Part shown: positions 1 to 5,193 of the stretch, piece after piece
Position numbering within the stretch: position 1 is the stretch's first letter
How the letters are laid out: every line of letters starts with the position of its first letter
Origin: Candidatus Iainarchaeum sp.
Lineage (GTDB): Archaea > Iainarchaeota > Iainarchaeia > Iainarchaeales > CSSED10-239
Reading direction: 5' to 3'
Assembly (NCBI GenBank): GCA_028700905.1
Contig: JAQVRT010000048.1
Coordinates: 1-5,193 of the forward strand
DNA length: 5,193 bases
Program-made: the position numbers and the translations under genes
Notes under the pieces: model-generated
What the model was told of the DNA's origin: nothing
The model's input: the letters and a program-made list of their open reading frames with translations, nothing else
The model's database searches: none

Positions 1-3000
1 TAGTTACTTGTTAAAGTATCATTAAAGTTCTGTAAGATTTTTTGATTTAATTGTTCAGAAGTTTCTGAAAACTTCTTAAGGTTAGAACTGAATACTTGAG
101 GAGAAGATCCAAAGTATACATCCATGTTTGCATAAACTATTGCTTTGTTATCAAAAGAATCATAATTTTTTAAGAAATAATCAACAGTTGTATATTGATA
201 ATCACCAATTTCTACAATATTATTTCCATTAGTAGTTAAACCTTTAGTCTTAATGATTGTTATTTCCTTTAAGTCTGTTGGAACAGCATTTAAAACTCTA
301 TTTGCTTGATCTATATAATCATTTAAAGTTTCTTTATCAGAAACATCAAAGCCATCACAAACACCATTTGCACAAAAATCTACTTTTACTTCTGATTTTT
401 TAATAGTATTATTTTCTTTTTCAAAATAAATACCATTAATATTTATATAATTATCATTTGAAGTAACTTCTTTTAATTTATCTGCTTTCTTTGTTAAGAA
501 ATTATAGAATTGTTCTTGATCACAGAAATAATCTTCACAAGAAGAATCTGTAATATCTTCTGGTAAGTAATCAAATAAGATTTTATTAAATCCATATTCA
601 TTATAGGCATTAGAACCTGTATGTCCAAGATTTGTTGAAAGGTCAGGAGCAAGACAAACTAAAGAATCATCTGTTGTTTGAGAAGGATCAGTTTTTCCAG
701 AGTCACCCTCTTCTTTAGAGCCAACTTCTTTTGTTGACACATCAGCTTTTACACCAATTAAAGTACTACCTTGGTATTTACCTTTATTTGTTGTATCTAA
801 AATTCTCCAAATCTCAAAATTTTGGTTTGTAAGAGAATCTTTACTTGTTTTAAATAAATCTAAGATATTATAATTATCATTTATTGCTAAAATATTATCA
901 AATGATTCAACTGGTCTTTCAAAACATAATTTAAAGATGTTTTTATTTTTAGTAATAAACTCAAGACTTACATCTAATGGATCATATTTTTTATTTAAAT
1001 AATATTTTCCTGGATTTTGTATATATGAAGTTTCTACAATACCATTTATAGGGAAGTCTTTTACATATCCATAGAAACATCTTTTACTTGTAGGATCTTG
1101 ATCAATTTGTGTGAATTTATCTGCAGCAAGTTCTCCTTCTGGAACATTGATAATAACTGCATTGTTATTAGGATCAAGGGTATATGTTAATTTTACAGAA
1201 GTATCAATAAATGAAATTTCTTCATCACTAATAGCTTCATCATCTAATAATTCTTTTAAAAGACCTATATTATCAGGATTATCTAAAATTAACCATTGGA
1301 AATTATCCTTAAGTTCCATACCTATATTATTATAGATAAGTGAAGCTTGTCCTGTTGGTGGTTGAAGTCCAACTTGTAAAGAAAACTTTAAGTTAACTGC
1401 GTCTTCAACATCAATTAATATTTTTCTAAATGAAGAAATAACACCAGCAGCTAAAGAATACTCAGAATATTTATTCATATATTCTTTTACAGACTTAGTA
1501 TTTTCAATTTCAGGATTTCTTCTTAATGCAATTTCCCAAACTTCCATTGGTTCATTTGTTGTTGTATTTGTTAAATAATCAACTTTTATTGGTTGAATTC
1601 TTCCTTGCATATCTCCTACATTTAAGAAAGATACACCATCAAAGTCAAGTGAAATTAAATCAAGATAATTTACTTCAACTATTCTATAACCTTGTGCAAA
1701 GCAAGTATTAATTACTTTTACAAGTTGATAGTTAGGATCAATAATATTTGAAAAATCTAATTTTTGAGGAGTTACTTGTATACAATTTGAAGACATAAAA
1801 CTAATTGGTAATGTTAAAGAAAATAATACATCTCCAATTGTTGAATAGTTTTCATTAGATGCAAGAGATGCCTTAGCATTTACAGGTATTTTAAAAGTAC
1901 CCATAGACTCTCCACCTAAAACACTAATTTCTTCTGTATCTCCAGGCTCTATTGTAAATTCTTTATCTGATGTAACTGTTAAACCATATGTTGAATCAAG
2001 TTTAATATCAACAGCTTCAGAACAATTATTTTTAATATAGAAAGGTCTTGTTGGACAATTCATGTTATTTGTAAAGCCCATGTTTCCATAATTACCTTGA
2101 GGATAACCTGTTAAGAAATTATAACTATCATAATTTCCAAAAGTATTTTGGAATTGTGAGGTAGGGAAATTATAAGGGTTAAATACAGAATTTTGATTTC
2201 CTGTATAATTTGTTTGTCCCACTAAATTATATCTAGGATTATAAATACCTTGTTGTTGTGTAAAATAACCAGGACCTTGTTGATAGTAATTTCTAGAATT
2301 GAATTGGTTATTAGGATTATATGTTGCACTAAAATTATTTCCACCAAAATAAGGATTATTAAAAGCTCCTCCTTGGTTTACTCCACCATAATAATTACCA
2401 TAATTATTAAGACCAGAATACCAATTACATGCAAGAGCAGGAATAGTCTCTCTTGGGATCTCAATACATTCTGAATAATCATTAATAATTGTTTTTAAAG
2501 GAAGTCTTGTTTTAACTTCATCAACACCATTAATATTTCCTTTCTTTGAAGTAAAATAAATTATTGGTGTTTTAACATCTGAAACTATTTTATGTGCTTT
2601 AAACTTTAATTGTAAAGTTGTCTTTGATTTCTTTAAAAGAGTTGATAATATTTCAGTTTCAGTTAAATTCTCTAAAATATATTCTTTTCCAGAAACAACA
2701 ATAGATAAAACTCCAGTTTCAGATTCATTACCCCAATCAACCATTGCATTAATAGTTCCTAAATCAACAGAAACATTCTTTGAAGTACAAGTGTTTTCTA
2801 AAGTGAAATCTAATGTTTTTGTTTCTTGAGATTTAGCTCTAATTGTTCCTTCAAGAGGTAGAACTTTTAAACATTCAAGAGAATCAAGAGAATTTCCTAA
2901 AACTATTCTTACAGTTAATGGAACTGTAATAACCCAAGTTTTATTCATTTCTTCACTTTTAATTTTAATTGCAACTTCTGTATTAATTGTTTGTTGATTA

Positions 3001-5193
3001 TAAAGATTAATACCTTTATCTGTTAATGTTGCTGTTAGAGAAATATCATTTTGAGAAACACCATTTATGATATTTTCTTCAATACCTAAATCAAGATCAA
3101 CAAATTCATTATCAGTAAATACTGATGCAGAAACAATTGTTAAAGGAACATAAGATTCATTATATAAACTAAAATTATAAACTTCTCTTATAGCTTTTGA
3201 AGAATCAATTGTTAAATCAATTTTTTCAGGAATTGTTGTTATTAATTTATCATCAATTACAATTTCTGTTTTAACTGTTTTATAATCATCTTTCTTTACA
3301 ACAATCTTTAAAACATCTCCAAGATCAGTTGCAGGAATTACATGCCCAAATAATCCTTCTTGGTTAGTTGAACCTACAGTTAAACTTCTATCATTAATTG
3401 AAAGTTCAACAATTGCATTTGAAATATAATTATTAGAATCATCAGTTACAACAACTAGTAAATCATTTGAAACAAAAGGAACTATTTTCCTTGGAACAAA
3501 CTCTACAAACATTTCTTTTGCAGGATCAATTTCAAGATATATTTTTTTAGAGAATACAACTTCTCCATTTGAAACTATTGAAAAGTCTAAAACATCAGAA
3601 ACATCATCTATTACTTTAAAAGCAAGTTCTCCAGTTATTAAATCATTTGAAACTAAAGAACCTAAATCAATTCCATCATAATCCTCTCCAACTAAAAGAG
3701 AACCAGTTCCTGAAGTAATAGAATAACCATCTAAATCAACAGAACTACCTGAAGAAATTACAAGCATTGAGTTAGGTGCAATTTTTCCATCTAAAACATT
3801 TAAACTAAATGAAAGTCTATAATTATTATCTAATTTAGCTTTATAACTATCTATTATATTTCTTGATAAATTATTTTGTGTGTTTGTCATAATAAATGCA
3901 TAACACATAAGTGAAGTACATTGATTTTGAGTTCCTAAAAATAATTGAACTTGTTTTGCTTGAGCATATAAATTTTGTTTACTTGTTGAAGAACTATAAG
4001 AAGAATCAACAGGTGATCTTATAATACTTGAACCTTGATAAAACTCTGCTCTATAATTTACAGCTTGGTTTGCAAAAGCTGTATCTAAAACAACAACATC
4101 TGCTTCAATTAAATAACTTCCTTGCATTGGATTATTTAAAGTTAAATTAAACCATTTTGCATTTCTTAAAGTTTTATTTGAATAGTCAATACCTTCTCCA
4201 TTACATGGAGTAAAAGTTAATGAACCGATCTTATCAGATTTTGCAAAACGTACATCTTTTATAAAAATTAAATCTTCTAAAACATTATATGTGTTTGAAG
4301 AACATAAAGGACTTGGAACTTCTCCAGTTCTTATATGTGCAACTGCTTTAGAATATTCTTTTGTAACATTTAATAAATATTTAGCAGTAACTTGCATACC
4401 TGCAGCCACTGAATTTATTTTTTCTCCTTCAGCATTATAAAAACCTAAAAATTCAATACCAGATGTTTGTCCAACAGTTCCTGGAATTGTAAAATTCAAA
4501 GTATTTATTTCGTTTGCATTTGTTGAATACTTTGGAGTTATAAATTTAGAATCTAAATTATCAATAACAAAATAAATTTGTTTATCAGCTCTAATCTTTA
4601 TTATTGTAAAACCATCTTGGTTTGTTGTTGTGGTTTTATCTTGCATTAAAGTATCGTTTGTTGCATCATAAACATATACATTTCCTTGATAGAAATCTCC
4701 ATACTCAGAAACTAAATTAATATTAAAAGTTCCTTCACCTATACTCATCTTTATAGTTTCTTCAGTAATTTCTTGTTCTGAGATTCTAAAAGGATTTGTA
4801 GGATTTGAAGTAAATTGATCTTTAGTTGCATCAAGTCTATATTCTTTACCTAAATCTAAATTTGTGAAAACAGCTTTACCATAAACATCAGCTGTAATTG
4901 TTCTAATAATAATATTTTCAGTATCATCCCATAATCTTATGGTTGCAAAATCAACAGGTTTTGCAAAATCATCAACAACAGTTATAACTAAACTTCTTAA
5001 GTTTTCATTTGTTATTGGAGTTAAGGCAATTTGTTTAATAGATTCACTTATTCTTTGATTATTTTCAGTTCTTATTATATAATTAGGATGATTAAATAAA
5101 ACTTTATAAGAAATATTTTCTTCAACACCAAAAGAAACAACTCCTTCTTTATTTGAATTAATTGTTTTTAAAATATCATTTCCTTTGTATATT
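1..5193 (-). CDS. Internal fragment (5' and 3' ends both outside the window) of a giant (>1,730 aa), probably secreted or cell-surface multidomain protein; hypothetical, no family name assignable
   Basis: I translated the reverse complement by hand in the frame with codons at + positions 3k..3k+2. All 1,730 codons from 5192 down to 3 are open: no in-frame tta, cta or tca triplet occurs on the + strand. The translation starts IYKGNDILKTINSNKEGVVSFGVEE and ends SEQLNQKILQNFNDTLTSN. It is protein-like throughout, with alternating beta-strand patterns and domain-sized periodicity. Codon usage is coherently AT-biased: Arg is almost always AGA (about 32 AGA against 1 AGG and 1 CGT), Leu is mostly TTA, and all 8 Trp are TGG. 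No other frame in the track holds an ORF longer than 74 aa. Confidence 0.9.
3..1500 (-). other. C-terminal-ward region of about 500 aa with unknown fold, apparently mixed alpha/beta, carrying two C-x4-C motifs
   Basis: The peptide runs KSVKEYMNKYSEYSLAAGVISSFRKILIDVEDAVN...QWLILDNPDNIGLLKELLDDEAISDEE...CFYGYVKDFPINGIVE...VCLAPDLSTNLGHTGSNAYNEYGF...CEDYFCDQEQFYNFL...VDFCANGVCDGFDV...SEQLNQKILQNFNDTLTSN. It lacks the regular strand periodicity of the upstream modules. I recognise no family. Confidence 0.3.
663..743 (-). other. Acidic, Ser/Thr/Gly-rich hydrophilic linker, probably disordered
   Basis: The peptide is DVSTKEVGSKEEGDSGKTDPSQTTDDS. It has no hydrophobic core residues. It coincides with the locally most GC-rich line I sampled (661-720, 23 G+C in 60 nt). 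Confidence 0.5.
1510..2057 (-). other. Two further Cys-bracketed Ig-like/beta-sandwich modules
   Basis: The first module is CPTRPFYIKNNCSEAVDIKLDSTYGLTVTSDKEFTIEPGDTEEISVLGGESMGTFKIPVNAKASL...LFSLTLPI. The second is CIQVTPQKLDFSNIIDPNYQLVKVINTCFAQGYRIVEVNYLDLISLDFDGVSFLNVGDMQGRIQPIKVDYL. The run F-x-I-x-P-G-x-x-x-x-I-x-V is typical of Ig-like folds. Fold class is inferred only. Confidence 0.35.
2058..2420 (-). other. 121-aa N/G/Y/Q/F-rich, nearly uncharged low-complexity (prion-like) segment within the CDS
   Basis: The peptide is YSGLNNYGNYYGGVNQGGAFNNPYFGGNNFSATYNPNNQFNSRNYYQQGPGYFTQQQGIYNPRYNLVGQTNYTGNQNSVFNPYNFPTSQFQNTFGNYDSYNFLTGYPQGNYGNMGFTNNMN. My hand count gives N 28, G 18, Y 17, Q 12, F 11, T 8, P 7 and S 6. 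Only 2 R and 1 D are charged, and there is no K or E. The flanking sequence is K/E/D-rich. Confidence 0.85.
2484..2879 (-). other. Ig-like/beta-sandwich module (about 130 aa) containing a Cys pair
   Basis: The peptide is LECLKVLPLEGTIRAKSQETKTLDFTLENTCTSKNVSVDLG...GVLSIVVSGKEYILENL...TTLQLKFKAHKIVSDVKTPIIYFTSKKGNINGVDEVKTRLPLKTII. It is strand-rich, with the pattern L-x-F-x-L-x-N-x-C. Confidence 0.35.
2901..3233 (-). other. Ig-like/beta-sandwich module (about 110 aa)
   Basis: The peptide is IPEKIDLTIDSSKAIREVYNFSLYNESYVPLTIVSASVFTDNEFVDLDLG...ISLTATLTDKGINLY...EVAIKIKSEEMNKTWVITVPLTVRIV. The run F-x-L-x-N-x-S-x-x-P-L-x-I followed by further strands is typical of PapD/ASH/CARDB-like Ig folds. 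The fold class is inferred only. Confidence 0.4.
3255..3461 (-). other. Carboxypeptidase-regulatory-like (CarboxypepD_reg/PEGA-type) beta-sandwich repeat
   Basis: The peptide is LLVVVTDDSNNYISNAIVELSINDRSLTVGSTNQEGLFGHVIPATDLGDVLKIVVKKDDYKTVKTEIVI. It has the same V-V-x-D, I-x-x-A-x-V-x-L, T-x-x-x-G-x-F, G-x-x-L-x-I-x-V-x-K-x-x-Y layout as 4773-5000. The DNA of the two repeats shows no obvious identity. Confidence 0.55.
3805..4484 (-). other. Uncharacterised module of about 225 aa with four Cys, inserted between the beta-sandwich repeats
   Basis: The peptide runs PGTVGQTSGIEFLGFYNAEGEKINSVAAGMQVTAKYLLNV ... PLCSS ... TPCNG ... QNQCTSLMCYAF ... YRLSFSL. I recognise no family motif. The Cys residues fall in two close pairs. 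Confidence 0.3.
4485..4757 (-). other. Third, more divergent beta-sandwich repeat of the same general type
   Basis: The peptide is TIKMSIGEGTFNINLVSEYGDFYQGNVYVYDATNDTLMQDKTTTTNQDGFTIIKIRADKQIYFVIDNLDSKFITPKYSTNANEINTLNFTI. It has alternating hydrophobic strands and a T-x-x-D-G-x-F core, followed by an I-Y-F-V strand. Confidence 0.4.
4773..5000 (-). other. Carboxypeptidase-regulatory-like (CarboxypepD_reg/PEGA-type) beta-sandwich repeat
   Basis: The peptide is LRSLVITVVDDFAKPVDFATIRLWDDTENIIIRTITADVYGKAVFTNLDLGKEYRLDATKDQFTSNPTNPFRISEQ. It fits the classical layout of about 75 aa: V-x-V-x-D-x-x-x-x-P-V-x-x-A-x-I-x-L, then T-x-x-D-x-x-G-x-x-x-F-x-x-L-x-x-G-x-Y-x-L. This is a motif-level call from memory of the family. 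Confidence 0.55.
5041..5192 (-). other. C-terminal part of a carboxypeptidase-regulatory/PEGA-like beta-sandwich repeat (protein-domain annotation within the CDS)
   Basis: The peptide is IYKGNDILKTINSNKEGVVSFGVEENISYKVLFNHPNYIIRTENNQRISES. It shows the pattern T-x-S/D-x-x-G-x-x-x-F, then Y-x-V, then a hydrophobic-Y strand, which is typical of the second half of such repeats. This is recognised by eye only, with no HMM run. Confidence 0.35.

What the first reader, a model, noticed from the sequence alone, without database searches (positions are those of the whole stretch)
2058..2420. Prion-like N/Q/G/Y/F low-complexity domain embedded in an apparently extracellular beta-sandwich chain
N, G, Y, Q and F make up 86 of the 121 residues. 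There are only three charged residues and no K or E, whereas the rest of the protein is K/E/D-rich. Strings such as QGPGYFTQQQGIYNPRYN and YPQGNYGNMGF resemble the Q/N/G/Y composition of yeast prion domains (the Sup35 N region) and of FUS-type phase-separating segments. A degenerate (F/Y)-N-P-(Y) or Y-N-P motif recurs four times (NNPYF, TYNPN, IYNPR, FNPYN), but with irregular spacing. Apart from a shared 10-mer (taggattata), there is no tandem DNA repeat. The bias is therefore compositional and not a recent slippage expansion, which argues that it is maintained. The segment is bracketed by Cys pairs: ECIE...ALAC just upstream and NCP...NNCS just downstream. Possible roles, all inferred, are a self-associating or amyloid-nucleating patch for matrix or fibre assembly, a cohesive Tyr-rich adhesive pad, or a flexible spacer. 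Such a domain inside a giant surface protein of a prokaryote would be unusual.
Basis: partly seen in the sequence, partly recalled or inferred. Interest (0 to 1): 0.72.

Follow-up and report, generated by a model that had tools for sequence, protein, structure and literature searches.

The report
Sticky disordered loop on archaeal surface giant
A 123-residue, charge-free, tyrosine/asparagine/glycine-rich disordered loop sticks out of one immunoglobulin-like domain of a giant membrane-anchored surface protein of a tiny symbiotic (DPANN) archaeon; over a hundred distant relatives keep such a loop, so it is probably a selected "sticky pad" for cell-surface cohesion and not compositional junk.

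Summary
Window 2058-2426 (minus strand) encodes aa 923-1045 of a 1730-aa partial ORF. N, Q, G, Y and F make up 87 of these 123 residues, with 3 charged residues and no K or E.

The window is a contig of a Candidatus Iainarchaeum/Forterrea-type DPANN archaeon. The protein is one of five clustered giant membrane-anchored proteins already proposed to mediate cell-cell interaction.

The segment is not a linker. It is an insertion in the A'-B hairpin of a beta-sandwich domain, between Cys922 and Cys1046. Across the family these two cysteines are gained and lost only as a pair, so they probably form a disulfide staple. AlphaFold2 models the flanks confidently and the loop as disordered.

115 non-redundant relatives carry a 37-203-aa loop at this site: about 20% aromatic, about 5% charged, with aromatics spaced more evenly than chance. 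A relative from a 53%-GC locus keeps it. A sister subfamily has a plain 25-residue hairpin instead.

Best reading: an extracellular prion-like/"sticker-and-spacer" cohesive pad. Amyloid formation is untested. The spacer reading is contradicted by the topology, and AT-driven drift by the conservation. This is a new variant of a known kind, of moderate-to-high interest.

The parts
3..5192 (-). Partial ORF, 1730 aa, corresponding to aa 359-2088 of the 2323-aa full-length orthologue P0001. It is a giant N-terminally membrane-anchored protein made of beta-sandwich domains. The window is identical to NCBI MDD4050109.1, 'hypothetical protein, partial [Candidatus ainarchaeum sp.]'.
   Evidence: No stop codons in this frame. 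96% identity to P0001. Exact cluster member P0024, 1730 aa on a 5193-bp contig. P0001 has a single hydrophobic segment, about aa 40-68.
2058..2426 (-). Low-complexity loop, aa 923-1045 (123 aa). Composition: N 24%, G 15%, Y 14%, Q 10%, F 9%. It has 29 aromatic residues and 3 charged residues, and is predicted to be disordered.
   Evidence: AlphaFold2 pLDDT is 23-28 for exactly these residues, against 85-95 for the flanks.
2427..2429 (-). Cys922 (C2), at the N-terminal base of the loop. Inferred disulfide partner of Cys1046.
   Evidence: Invariant in alignment A2. Family members have either 2 or 0 cysteines between C1 and C4 (54 against 59; two have 3; none has 1).
2055..2057 (-). Cys1046 (C3), at the C-terminal base of the loop. 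Inferred disulfide partner of Cys922.
2466..2468 (-). Cys909 (C1), at the start of strand A of the host domain. It is the canonical domain cysteine, inferred to pair with Cys1057.
   Evidence: The neighbouring domains carry the same pair (C774/C802 and C1137/C1164), invariant in A1 and A2. The sister subfamily has C1-x25-C4.
2022..2024 (-). Cys1057 (C4), at the end of strand B of the host domain.
1788..2480 (-). Host Ig-like/PapD-like beta-sandwich domain, about aa 905-1135, carrying the loop in its A'-B hairpin.
   Evidence: In the AF2 model, strands at aa 917-920 and 1048-1055 flank the loop and are followed by the rest of a sandwich. Foldseek matches ASH/PapD-like Ig arrays, pilins and integrin legs.
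2397..2426 (-). Loop entry motif NWYSGLNNYG. The family consensus is (C)-P-[YWF]-N-[TL]-G-[YF]-G-x-Y. This is the only positionally conserved part of the loop.
   Evidence: Column counts over 113 members: G 94, N 66, G 66, Y 61.
2481..2885 (-). Preceding beta-sandwich domain, about aa 770-904, with the plain hairpin C774-x27-C802. It serves as the internal reference for the uninterrupted fold.
1443..1784 (-). Following beta-sandwich domain, from aa 1137, with C1137/C1164.
2385..2409 (.). 12-nt x2.1 microduplication encoding part of NNYGNYYGG. It is the only tandem repeat in the segment.

Best explanation
What it is (shown or strongly inferred). The segment is an intrinsically disordered, essentially uncharged, aromatic-rich low-complexity loop. 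It is inserted into the A'-B beta-hairpin of one Ig-like domain, halfway along a giant surface protein of about 2300 aa. That protein is N-terminally membrane-anchored and belongs to a Forterrea/Iainarchaeum-type DPANN archaeon. The base of the loop is closed by a Cys922-Cys1046 disulfide (inferred from paired gain and loss). The loop is therefore a lateral appendage and does not lengthen the chain.

How it most likely works (inferred). Tyr and Phe residues occur about every 3-5 positions and act as 'stickers'. They are separated by Asn/Gln/Gly/Ser/Thr/Pro 'spacers', as in prion-like domains of the Sup35-N, FUS and hnRNPA1 type. This gives a multivalent, low-specificity cohesive pad held at a fixed height above the membrane. 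Many weak aromatic and amide contacts could let neighbouring copies cluster on the same cell. They could also let the protein stick to partner giant proteins of the same gene cluster or to the surface of the host cell. Either would raise the avidity of cell-cell attachment, on which this metabolically minimal symbiont depends. Three features would keep the pad dynamic and limit runaway amyloid formation: the even aromatic spacing, frequent Gly/Pro, and the closed-loop topology.
For: The composition statistics far exceed both the protein's own background and the local 26.5%-GC background.

AF2 gives pLDDT 23-28 with no secondary structure for aa 923-1045, between beta-sandwich domains at pLDDT 85-95. 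FoldIndex is below 0.

Topology. The neighbouring domains and about 35 sister-subfamily proteins have C-x25-27-C hairpins. Here the same two cysteines lie 147 residues apart, and two extra cysteines sit at the loop base. The number of cysteines inside the hairpin is 2 in 54 members, 0 in 59 and 3 in 2, and never 1.

Conservation. 115 non-redundant relatives, drawn from 312 representatives at 50% clustering, carry a 37-203-aa loop here. Aromatic content is 19.6±4.5% (8.4% elsewhere in these proteins), charged content 5.1% (22.8% elsewhere), and I/L/V 6.9% (22.8% elsewhere).

Sequence drift. Identity in the loop equals flank identity among close relatives and falls to the level expected from composition alone in distant ones. 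Between 96%-identical orthologues dN/dS is 0.29, there are no indels, and the changes are F/Y and S/N/T swaps.

Not AT-driven. N and Q content tracks an AT-richness proxy, G and P vary inversely, and aromatic content does not track it (rho -0.09). The locus of P0014 is 53% GC and keeps the loop.

Aromatic spacing. In the window the variance of gaps between aromatics is 4.9, against 12.0 for shuffles (P=0.003). It is below the shuffle mean in 109 of 115 members (sign test 1e-25). Spacings of i+3 to i+5 are enriched 1.3-2x and i+1/i+2 spacings are depleted to about 0.5-0.7x of expectation. The same metric gives similar ratios for Sup35-N, FUS and hnRNPA1. Evenly spaced aromatics are the published hallmark of liquid-like, aggregation-resistant PLDs (PMC8638251).

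Context. The gene lies in a conserved cluster of giant membrane-anchored paralogues plus a pilin-like gene. [quoted passage not shown] Forterrea (PMC5905446).

Precedent. Adhesins are known to cluster through aromatic bands or cross-beta segments (PMC10144551).
Against: No experiment bears on this. Self-association, the disulfide and even surface exposure are all inferred.

AF2 used a shallow alignment of 17 sequences, and low pLDDT does not prove disorder. I could not obtain model coordinates to measure the Cys-Cys distance.

The loop contains Sup35-like zipper-type stretches (NNQFNSRNYYQQ, YFTQQQ). Among close relatives its sequence is conserved as well as that of the folded flanks, which would also fit a specific structure or a specific partner.

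Arg is nearly absent, unlike in FUS-type domains. Aromatic density (24%) is above that of typical phase-separating PLDs and could favour collapse or solid assemblies.

Half of the family lacks the cysteine staple. The other four giant paralogues in the cluster lack such a loop.
Confidence: 0.48

Rival explanations
1. Functional amyloid or prion-like nucleator. The loop converts to cross-beta structure and stacks with loops of neighbouring molecules, locking the giant proteins into plaques or fibres, as Als/Flo adhesins and Sup35-N do.
For: Composition is closest to Sup35-N (JSD 0.124). Q+N per 80 aa is 29 in the window and 31 in the 96% orthologue, against the classic threshold of 30. The PAPA-style score is 0.137, above 0.05. 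The loop has G/P-free Q/N/Y stretches of up to 12 residues. Archaeal candidate prion domains rich in Tyr/Phe did form amyloid in 6-8 of 16 tests (bioRxiv 10.1101/2020.07.20.212902). Fungal adhesins use cross-beta clustering.
Against: Aromatics are evenly spaced and adjacent aromatics are depleted, which in studied PLDs disfavours aggregation. Gly+Pro make up 20% of residues, about one every five. Both ends are fixed to a rigid domain inside a 2300-aa membrane-anchored chain, which hinders in-register stacking at 4.7 Å. There is no repeat ladder as in curli. Distant homologues shift towards G/S/T/P-rich, low-Q/N compositions that are less amyloid-like.
Confidence: 0.17
2. Specific recognition element. 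The loop folds upon binding a defined ligand, such as a host S-layer protein or glycan, a partner giant paralogue, or the membrane interface. It would not then be a generic cohesive pad.
For: Among relatives with 55-70% identity, loop identity (0.54-0.70) equals flank identity. The entry motif P-[YWF]-N-x-G-[YF]-G-x-Y is conserved across the family. Tyr/Asn/Gln-rich surfaces are typical of carbohydrate and protein recognition (general knowledge). The organism is a host-dependent symbiont.
Against: Beyond about 45% flank identity the loop sequence is no more similar than shuffled versions. Loop length ranges from 37 to 203 aa. Only composition and spacing are conserved, which is atypical of a defined binding site. 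AF2 sees no structure.
Confidence: 0.18
3. Passive element: an in-line flexible spacer or spring, an entropic bristle, or a steric or protease shield with no adhesive role.
For: It is predicted to be disordered. Its composition recalls elastomeric Gly/Gln/Tyr/Pro proteins (general knowledge).
Against: Both ends emerge from adjacent antiparallel strands and are stapled in half of the family, so the loop cannot extend the chain or bear load. A bristle or shield would not need 20% evenly spaced aromatics or near-total exclusion of Lys and Glu (0.3% and 0.8% in 11,101 pooled residues). One relative does carry a T/P-rich mucin-type insert at this site, which shows that a different solution exists for a passive role.
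Confidence: 0.07
4. Neutral, AT-driven compositional drift or slippage junk tolerated in a surface loop.
For: The genome is 26.6% GC and the loop is Asn-rich. Loop N and Q content correlates with an AT-richness proxy (rho 0.36 and 0.43).
Against: The loop's GC content equals that of the rest of the gene. No comparable segment occurs in about 6,500 neighbouring residues at the same GC. Lys, Ile and Glu, which AT-rich genomes also favour, are excluded. The loop is conserved at one site in 115 relatives, including one from a 53%-GC locus. dN/dS is 0.29 with no indels. There is essentially no tandem DNA repeat.
Confidence: 0.03

Closest known systems
Yeast prion domain of Sup35 (N region) and other Q/N-rich PrDs
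   Same: Q/N/G/Y-rich and almost charge-free, with about 20% aromatics. It has 'YNP'- and 'QQG'-type motifs and is predicted to be disordered. The composition distance is small (JSD 0.124). The ratio of aromatic gap variance to shuffles is 0.41, against 0.52 for Sup35-N (Sup35 sequence recalled from memory).
   Different: No sequence homology (BLASTP E=46) and no oligopeptide repeats. N exceeds Q, and F accompanies Y. The segment is an internal closed loop in an extracellular Ig-like domain, not a cytoplasmic terminal tail. Relatives replace N/Q by G/S/T/P. Prion behaviour is untested.
FUS/hnRNPA1-type prion-like low-complexity domains (stickers-and-spacers)
   Same: Evenly spaced aromatic stickers in polar G/S/N/Q spacers, with depletion of aliphatic and charged residues. 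Composition and spacing are conserved while the sequence is not (PMC8638251).
   Different: Extracellular and archaeal. Aromatic density is higher (24% against 13-15%). There is almost no Arg. The segment is tethered at both ends. No RNA-binding context. Phase behaviour is untested.
Archaeal candidate prion domains found by PLAAC (Zajkowski et al., bioRxiv 10.1101/2020.07.20.212902)
   Same: Q/N-rich segments in archaeal proteins, DPANN included. They are enriched in adhesion and outer-surface GO terms, and Tyr/Phe content distinguishes those that form amyloid.
   Different: That survey does not describe this protein family, the hairpin insertion, the cysteine staple or the aromatic spacing. 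I did not find this protein in its lists; the supplements were not searched.
Fungal adhesins: Flo11 aromatic bands and Als/Flo cross-beta cores
   Same: Cell-surface proteins built on Ig-like domains. They use homotypic Trp/Tyr stacking or short aggregation-prone segments to cluster on the surface and to bond cells, raising avidity (PMC10144551).
   Different: Flo11's aromatics lie on a folded domain. Als cores are short (about 7 aa) hydrophobic I/V/T segments. In the window the element is a 123-aa polar disordered loop. There is no homology.
Cohesive GLFG-type FG-nucleoporin domains
   Same: Uncharged N/Q/S/T/G-rich disordered regions with regularly spaced aromatic motifs that form cohesive meshworks (general knowledge).
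   Different: Only 3 FG dipeptides in the window's loop. Tyr, not Phe, dominates. The aromatic density is much higher. The cellular setting is different.
Curli CsgA and archaeal sheath amyloids (MspA)
   Same: Extracellular, Q/N/G/Y-containing prokaryotic proteins that self-assemble (general knowledge; PMC7582709 was listed).
   Different: These are whole-protein repeat-ladder amyloids. The window's loop shows no repeat periodicity at the DNA level, and only a 3-5-residue aromatic spacing at the protein level.

Membership tests
Q/N-rich prion-like domain (Michelitsch-Weissman / PLAAC / PAPA definitions) | At least 30 Q+N in 80 consecutive residues | tested here: inconclusive
   The maximum is 29 per 80 aa in the window and 31 per 80 aa in the 96%-identical orthologue. 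It is 13-22 in other proteins and orthologues of the cluster. More distant family members fall well below (loop N+Q averages 19%).
Q/N-rich prion-like domain (Michelitsch-Weissman / PLAAC / PAPA definitions) | Predicted disorder plus prion propensity above threshold (PAPA > 0.05 with FoldIndex < 0) | tested here: met
   My re-implementation gives PAPA-like 0.137 (segment mean 0.111) and FoldIndex -0.10. The propensity table was recalled from Toombs et al. 2010, not taken from the official tool. AF2 pLDDT is below 30.
Q/N-rich prion-like domain (Michelitsch-Weissman / PLAAC / PAPA definitions) | PLAAC HMM core of at least 60 aa with a positive score against a proteome-matched background | not testable with these tools
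   PLAAC and the full proteome of CP045477.1 were not available. As a surrogate, no comparable segment occurs in about 6,500 neighbouring residues.
Q/N-rich prion-like domain (Michelitsch-Weissman / PLAAC / PAPA definitions) | Forms self-templating amyloid (ThT/Congo red, SDD-AGE, Sup35 replacement) | not testable with these tools
   This requires experiments.
Sticker-and-spacer prion-like low-complexity domain (FUS/hnRNPA1 type) | Aromatic residues enriched and more evenly spaced than random in a polar, low-charge, low-aliphatic context | tested here: met
   In the window, aromatics are 24% and gap variance is 4.9 against 12.0 for shuffles (P=0.003). The variance is below the shuffle mean in 109 of 115 relatives. 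Charged content is 2.4% and I/L/V 5.7%.
Sticker-and-spacer prion-like low-complexity domain (FUS/hnRNPA1 type) | Composition and patterning conserved while sequence diverges | tested here: met
Sticker-and-spacer prion-like low-complexity domain (FUS/hnRNPA1 type) | Undergoes concentration-dependent phase separation or gelation | not testable with these tools
   This requires experiments.
Repeat-ladder functional amyloid (curli CsgA-like) | Several imperfect sequence repeats forming a beta-solenoid ladder | tested here: not met
   TRF finds only a 12-nt x2.1 repeat. Direct repeats are short 2-copy families of 10-19 nt.
FG-nucleoporin-like cohesive domain | Multiple FG/GLFG/FxFG motifs as the aromatic units | tested here: not met
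   [YF]G occurs 5 times, and only three of these are FG. Tyr is the main aromatic: Y 14%, F 4.2% and W 1.3% in pooled loops.
Inter-domain linker / in-line spacer | Connects the C-terminus of one folded domain to the N-terminus of the next | tested here: not met
   The loop lies between strands A' and B of one domain. The homologous hairpin is 25-27 residues long in neighbouring domains and in the sister subfamily.
Ig-like/PapD-like beta-sandwich surface array (host protein) | Tandem beta-sandwich domains, a membrane anchor and an extracytoplasmic cysteine pair in some domains | tested here: met
   AF2 flanks have pLDDT 85-95 and are all-beta. Foldseek E-values reach 1e-13 to ASH/PapD-type arrays, pilins and integrin legs. 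Pfam matches are CarboxypepD_reg, SdrD_B and SpaA. There is a single N-terminal TM segment. Cysteine pairs are invariant.

The most novel reading that the evidence does not exclude
Archaea evolved, independently of eukaryotes, the same 'sticker-and-spacer' molecular grammar for use outside the cell. A family of giant DPANN surface proteins displays disulfide-stapled, aromatic-patterned disordered loops, sometimes two or three per protein. These loops would condense into a gel-like cohesive zone at a fixed height above the membrane. Such a zone would hold the symbiont's giant adhesins together, or weld the symbiont to its host. If so, this would be the first extracellular, condensate-type adhesion layer described in a prokaryote.
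Probability: 0.25. Interest if true: 0.82.

Novelty: new variant of a known kind. Interest (0 to 1): 0.58.

Why it matters
DPANN archaea depend on physical attachment to hosts, yet the molecules that mediate attachment are almost unknown. The five clustered giant proteins of Ca. Forterrea take up 5% of its genome and have no annotated function.

This analysis gives one of them a concrete and testable feature. It is a conserved, patterned, charge-free aromatic loop with a defined topology and a clear set of mutants to make:
- aromatic-to-Ser substitutions;
- re-patterning of the aromatic positions;
- Cys-to-Ser substitutions at the staple;
- replacement by the plain hairpin of the sister subfamily.

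It would also extend the prion-like/low-complexity 'grammar', so far studied almost entirely inside eukaryotic cells, to the extracellular face of archaea. And it provides a natural series of more than 100 divergent sequences with which to test which features are under selection: aromatic spacing, exclusion of Lys/Glu, and the staple.

Tried and rejected
- **Sequence search of solved structures.** Neither the whole ORF nor the loop alone gave any hit.
- **Pfam and NCBIfam.** Only weak Ig-type domain matches, nothing in the loop, and nothing informative for the neighbouring genes except a weak ComGF-like pilin signal.
- **BLASTP of the loop against Sup35-N.** No homology, E=46.
- **AF2 plus Foldseek of the C-terminal 600 aa, to infer a function for the protein.** The model was mediocre (pLDDT 69) and gave only generic PapD/Ig-like hits.
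- **Genome scan with the broad alignment A2.** It failed because no stretch was conserved enough. The narrower alignment A4 returned only 5 close loci, so the taxonomy of the distant family members remains unknown.
- **N-glycosylation as the reason for the Asn-richness.** Rejected: the loop has only 2 sequons, and sequons in the ORF as a whole are not enriched (20 against 25.7±4.4 in shuffles).
- **Even spacing of Gly/Pro.** Not significant (P=0.08).
- **Recent slippage expansion.** Rejected.
- **The antisense ORF at 2250-2474 (74 aa).** Regarded as a by-product of the AT-rich coding strand.
Full report
**1. What is in the window**

The 5193-nt window is 26.6% GC. It has one frame without stops, on the minus strand (window:3-5192), which gives a 1730-aa protein open at both ends. 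This sequence is identical to NCBI MDD4050109.1, 'hypothetical protein, partial [Candidatus ainarchaeum sp.]', on a 5193-bp contig.

The full-length orthologue P0001 is 96% identical and 2323 aa long. It lies on the 839,632-bp complete genome of Candidatus Forterrea multitransposorum, CP045477.1. P0001 has one hydrophobic segment, at about aa 40-68, preceded by a conserved and slightly basic 39-aa N-terminus. No other membrane segment is present. The remaining ~2250 residues are therefore most simply read as extracytoplasmic.

**2. Check of the observation**

- N, G, Y, Q and F make up 86 of 121 residues.
- The charged residues are R2 and D1, with no K or E.
- The quoted strings, the four N-P motifs and the duplicated 10-mer TAGGATTATA are all present.
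- The Cys brackets are as described.

The natural limits of the segment are Cys922 and Cys1046, so the loop is aa 923-1045, window 2058-2426. The only tandem DNA repeat is a 12-nt x2.1 microduplication at 2385-2409. GC content is the same as in the rest of the gene.

Against the rest of the protein the bias is extreme:

| Residue group | Loop | Rest of protein | P |
|---|---|---|---|
| N+Q+G+Y+F | 87/123 | 0.259 | 4e-25 |
| K+E+D+R | 3/123 | 0.229 | 1e-10 |
| I+L+V | 7/123 | 0.251 | 2e-8 |

I also compared it with the other proteins encoded in the same 27-kb, 26.5%-GC locus, about 6,500 further residues. Nothing similar occurs there. Their maximum Q+N per 80 aa is 13-19, against 29 in the window's loop and 31 in the orthologue. 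Their minimum charged count per 80 aa is 6-12, against 1 in the orthologue's loop, which is 91% identical to the window's.

**3. Anatomy**

AlphaFold2 was run on aa 655-1250 with 16 homologues. It models beta-sandwich domains with pLDDT 85-95 on both sides of the loop. It gives pLDDT 23-28 and no secondary structure for exactly aa 923-1045. Foldseek places the flanks among ASH/PapD-like Ig arrays, chaperone-usher pilins, integrin legs and an S-layer protein.

The domain before the loop and the domain after it each carry one invariant cysteine pair, C774-x27-C802 and C1137-x26-C1164. These sit at the start of strand A and the end of strand B. In the loop-bearing domain the equivalent cysteines are C909 and C1057, which lie 147 residues apart. 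Strand A' (aa 917-920) ends two residues before C922. Strand B (aa 1048-1055) starts two residues after C1046.

The low-complexity segment therefore replaces the tight turn of the A'-B hairpin. It is a lateral loop of one domain, not a linker between domains.

**4. Relatives**

A profile of this region found 312 representatives (one per 50%-identity cluster) with E<=1e-3, and 140 with E<=1e-30. Most are 2300-2700 aa long and match at about residues 1000-1550.

After alignment to the profile, 115 non-redundant members have C1 and C4 separated by 61-227 residues. Their loops are 37-203 aa long, mean 97:

| Property | Loop | Rest of the same proteins |
|---|---|---|
| Aromatic (Y+F+W) | 19.6 ± 4.5% | 8.4% |
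| Charged (K+E+D+R) | 5.1% | 22.8% |
| I+L+V | 6.9% | 22.8% |

The pooled composition over 11,101 loop residues is G 16%, Y 14%, N 11.5%, S 10%, Q 8%, P 7% and T 6%, with K 0.3% and E 0.8%.

About 35 full-length members of a sister subfamily have a plain hairpin, C-x25-C, at the same place. One has a T/P-rich insert there instead. The loop is thus a derived insertion that a large clade has kept.

Only the first ten or so residues are positionally conserved, with consensus (C)-P-[YWF]-N-[TL]-G-[YF]-G-x-Y.

**5. The cysteine staple**

Among the 115 members, the number of cysteines strictly between C1 and C4 is 2 in 54, 0 in 59 and 3 in 2. It is never 1. Paired presence or absence is what a C2-C3 disulfide closing the base of the loop would produce. 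Loops with and without the staple do not differ in length or composition.

**6. Selection, not drift**

- *Close relatives.* Among relatives with 55-70% overall identity, the loop is as conserved as the flanks (0.54-0.70), 8-10 SD above shuffled loops. Beyond that distance, loop identity equals what composition alone predicts, while the flanks keep 30-50% identity.
- *Substitution pattern.* Between the window and its 96% orthologue, dN/dS in the loop is 0.29, against 0.13 for the flanks and 0.20 for the rest. There are no indels. All 11 replacements stay within the loop's repertoire: F/Y, S/N/T, I/V and the like.
- *Genome composition.* Across the family, loop N and Q content rises with an AT-richness proxy of the host protein (rho 0.36 and 0.43). 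G and P fall (rho -0.32 and -0.36). Aromatic content is independent of it (rho -0.09). The relative P0014 sits in a 53%-GC locus and still has a 109-aa loop with 20% aromatics and 5.5% charged residues.

What is conserved is therefore the combination of aromatic richness, polarity, lack of charge and lack of aliphatics. Asn-richness as such is not conserved.

**7. Patterning**

Aromatic residues are spaced more evenly than in shuffles. In the window the gap variance is 4.9 against 12.0 (P=0.003). It is below the shuffle mean in 109 of 115 members (sign test 1e-25) and individually significant at P<=0.05 in 56.

In pooled loops, spacings of i+3, i+4 and i+5 are enriched 1.3-2x. Spacings of i+1 and i+2 are depleted to about 0.5-0.7x of expectation, and gaps above 12 are halved.

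With the same metric, sequences of Sup35-N, FUS-LC and hnRNPA1-LCD (recalled from memory) give ratios of 0.52, 0.27 and 0.35, against 0.41 for the window's loop. The loop's composition is nearer to Sup35-N (JSD 0.124) than to its own protein (0.238).

The literature links evenly spaced aromatics in prion-like domains to liquid-like, aggregation-resistant assemblies, and clustered aromatics to solid ones (PMC8638251).

**8. Context**

The gene is third in a same-strand cluster with products of 2671, 559, 2323 (the window's protein), 1867, 964 and 2466 aa. The 559-aa product has a pilin-type N-terminus. The same order recurs at only ~31% protein identity in another lineage.

This is the region described for Ca. 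[quoted passage not shown] That organism lacks most biosynthesis and is inferred to be host-dependent (PMC5905446).

None of the other cluster proteins has such a loop. Other family members, however, carry second and third loops of the same type 200-280 and 410-530 residues further on.

**9. Interpretation**

*Shown.* The segment is a real, strongly biased, conserved insertion, predicted to be disordered, at a defined hairpin of an Ig-like domain in a giant membrane-anchored protein.

*Inferred.* It is extracellular, stapled by a disulfide, and acts as a multivalent cohesive pad of the sticker-and-spacer kind. It would cluster the giant proteins or stick them to partners or to the host surface. 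I give the mechanistic part about 0.45-0.5.

The rivals, with my estimates:

| Reading | Confidence | Main consideration |
|---|---|---|
| Cross-beta/amyloid clustering | 0.17 | Sup35-like composition and zipper-like stretches speak for it; patterning, Gly/Pro frequency and double tethering speak against it |
| Specific fold-upon-binding recognition | 0.18 | Supported by conservation among close relatives and by the entry motif |
| Passive spacer or shield | 0.07 | The topology excludes an in-line role |
| AT-driven drift | 0.03 | Contradicted by the evidence in section 6 |

**10. Comparison with what is known**

PLAAC surveys already report candidate prion domains in 69% of archaeal proteomes and about 0.1% of archaeal proteins. 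DPANN are included, adhesion terms are enriched, and Tyr/Phe content predicts amyloid formation (bioRxiv 10.1101/2020.07.20.212902). The kind is therefore known.

Several features appear to be new: the protein family, the insertion into a beta-hairpin with a co-varying cysteine pair, conservation across more than 100 divergent lineages and across GC contents, and the even aromatic patterning in an extracellular archaeal setting. I found none of these described.

Formal membership of the Q/N-rich prion class is borderline: 29-31 Q+N per 80 aa in this lineage, and much lower in relatives. The sticker-and-spacer description fits the whole family better.

Verdict: a new variant of a known kind, interest about 0.58.

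Noticed in passing
L001:66-26972; L004/L005:1-27401: A conserved same-strand cluster encodes products of about 2700, 560-605, 2320-2470 (the LCD bearer), about 1850, about 965 and about 2470 aa. The ~560-605-aa product has a pilin-like class-III-type N-terminus, 'MLRNKKGFNLFTALISL', and a weak ComGF hit. The gene order is kept at only ~31% protein identity. It corresponds to the '42-kbp region' of five giant membrane-anchored proteins noted for Ca. Forterrea (PMC5905446).
   Followed up: partly
P0001 aa 1-68 and the N-termini of the L001 paralogues (L001:66-, 17000-, 25551-): The paralogous giants share a conserved ~40-aa cytoplasmic N-terminal motif directly before their single TM helix: Y..LEdKYf.FLd.LE.KGI.lYKI.DPLEk.GIPtF. 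It may be a sorting or assembly signal. No family match was found.
   Followed up: no
Family members P0014, P0017, P0050, P0054, P0087, P0089, P0115 and others: Many relatives carry a second and sometimes a third aromatic-rich, uncharged low-complexity insertion, 200-280 and 410-530 residues after C1. Several of these are again bracketed by cysteines. The window protein has only the canonical loop.
   Followed up: partly
P0019 aa ~1292-1378: One sister-subfamily protein has a Thr/Pro-rich, mucin-like 86-aa insert at the very hairpin where the aromatic loop sits in the window protein.
   Followed up: no
P0016, P0018-P0021 (about aa 1450-1750): The distant, loop-less subfamily has a mid-protein stretch of Gln-rich coiled-coil-like sequence, followed by Gly/Ala-rich hydrophobic segments. 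This is possibly an additional membrane or fusion-like element. It is absent from the window protein.
   Followed up: no
window 2385-2409: A 12-nt x2.1 microduplication (ACCATAATAATT on the + strand) encodes part of NNYGNYYGG at the start of the loop. It is the only trace of slippage in the segment.
   Followed up: yes
L003 (JBFOMO010003894.1), 53% GC: A higher-GC relative (P0014, 2613 aa) keeps the loop. It is followed by a NYN-domain gene, a 160-aa gene and another 2687-aa giant whose least-charged 80-aa window (from about aa 1794) has only 3 charged residues. That may be another low-complexity loop in a paralogue.
   Followed up: no
window 2250-2474 (+ strand): A 74-aa antisense ORF overlaps the loop-coding region. 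It is Ile/Leu/Thr-rich, has no support, and is most likely a by-product of the AT-rich coding strand.
   Followed up: no
window ORF, whole length: N-x-S/T sequons are not enriched (20 observed against 25.7±4.4 in shuffles). The 19 cysteines fall mostly into closely spaced (i to i+5) or domain-type (i to i+27-51) pairs, consistent with extracytoplasmic disulfides.
   Followed up: partly
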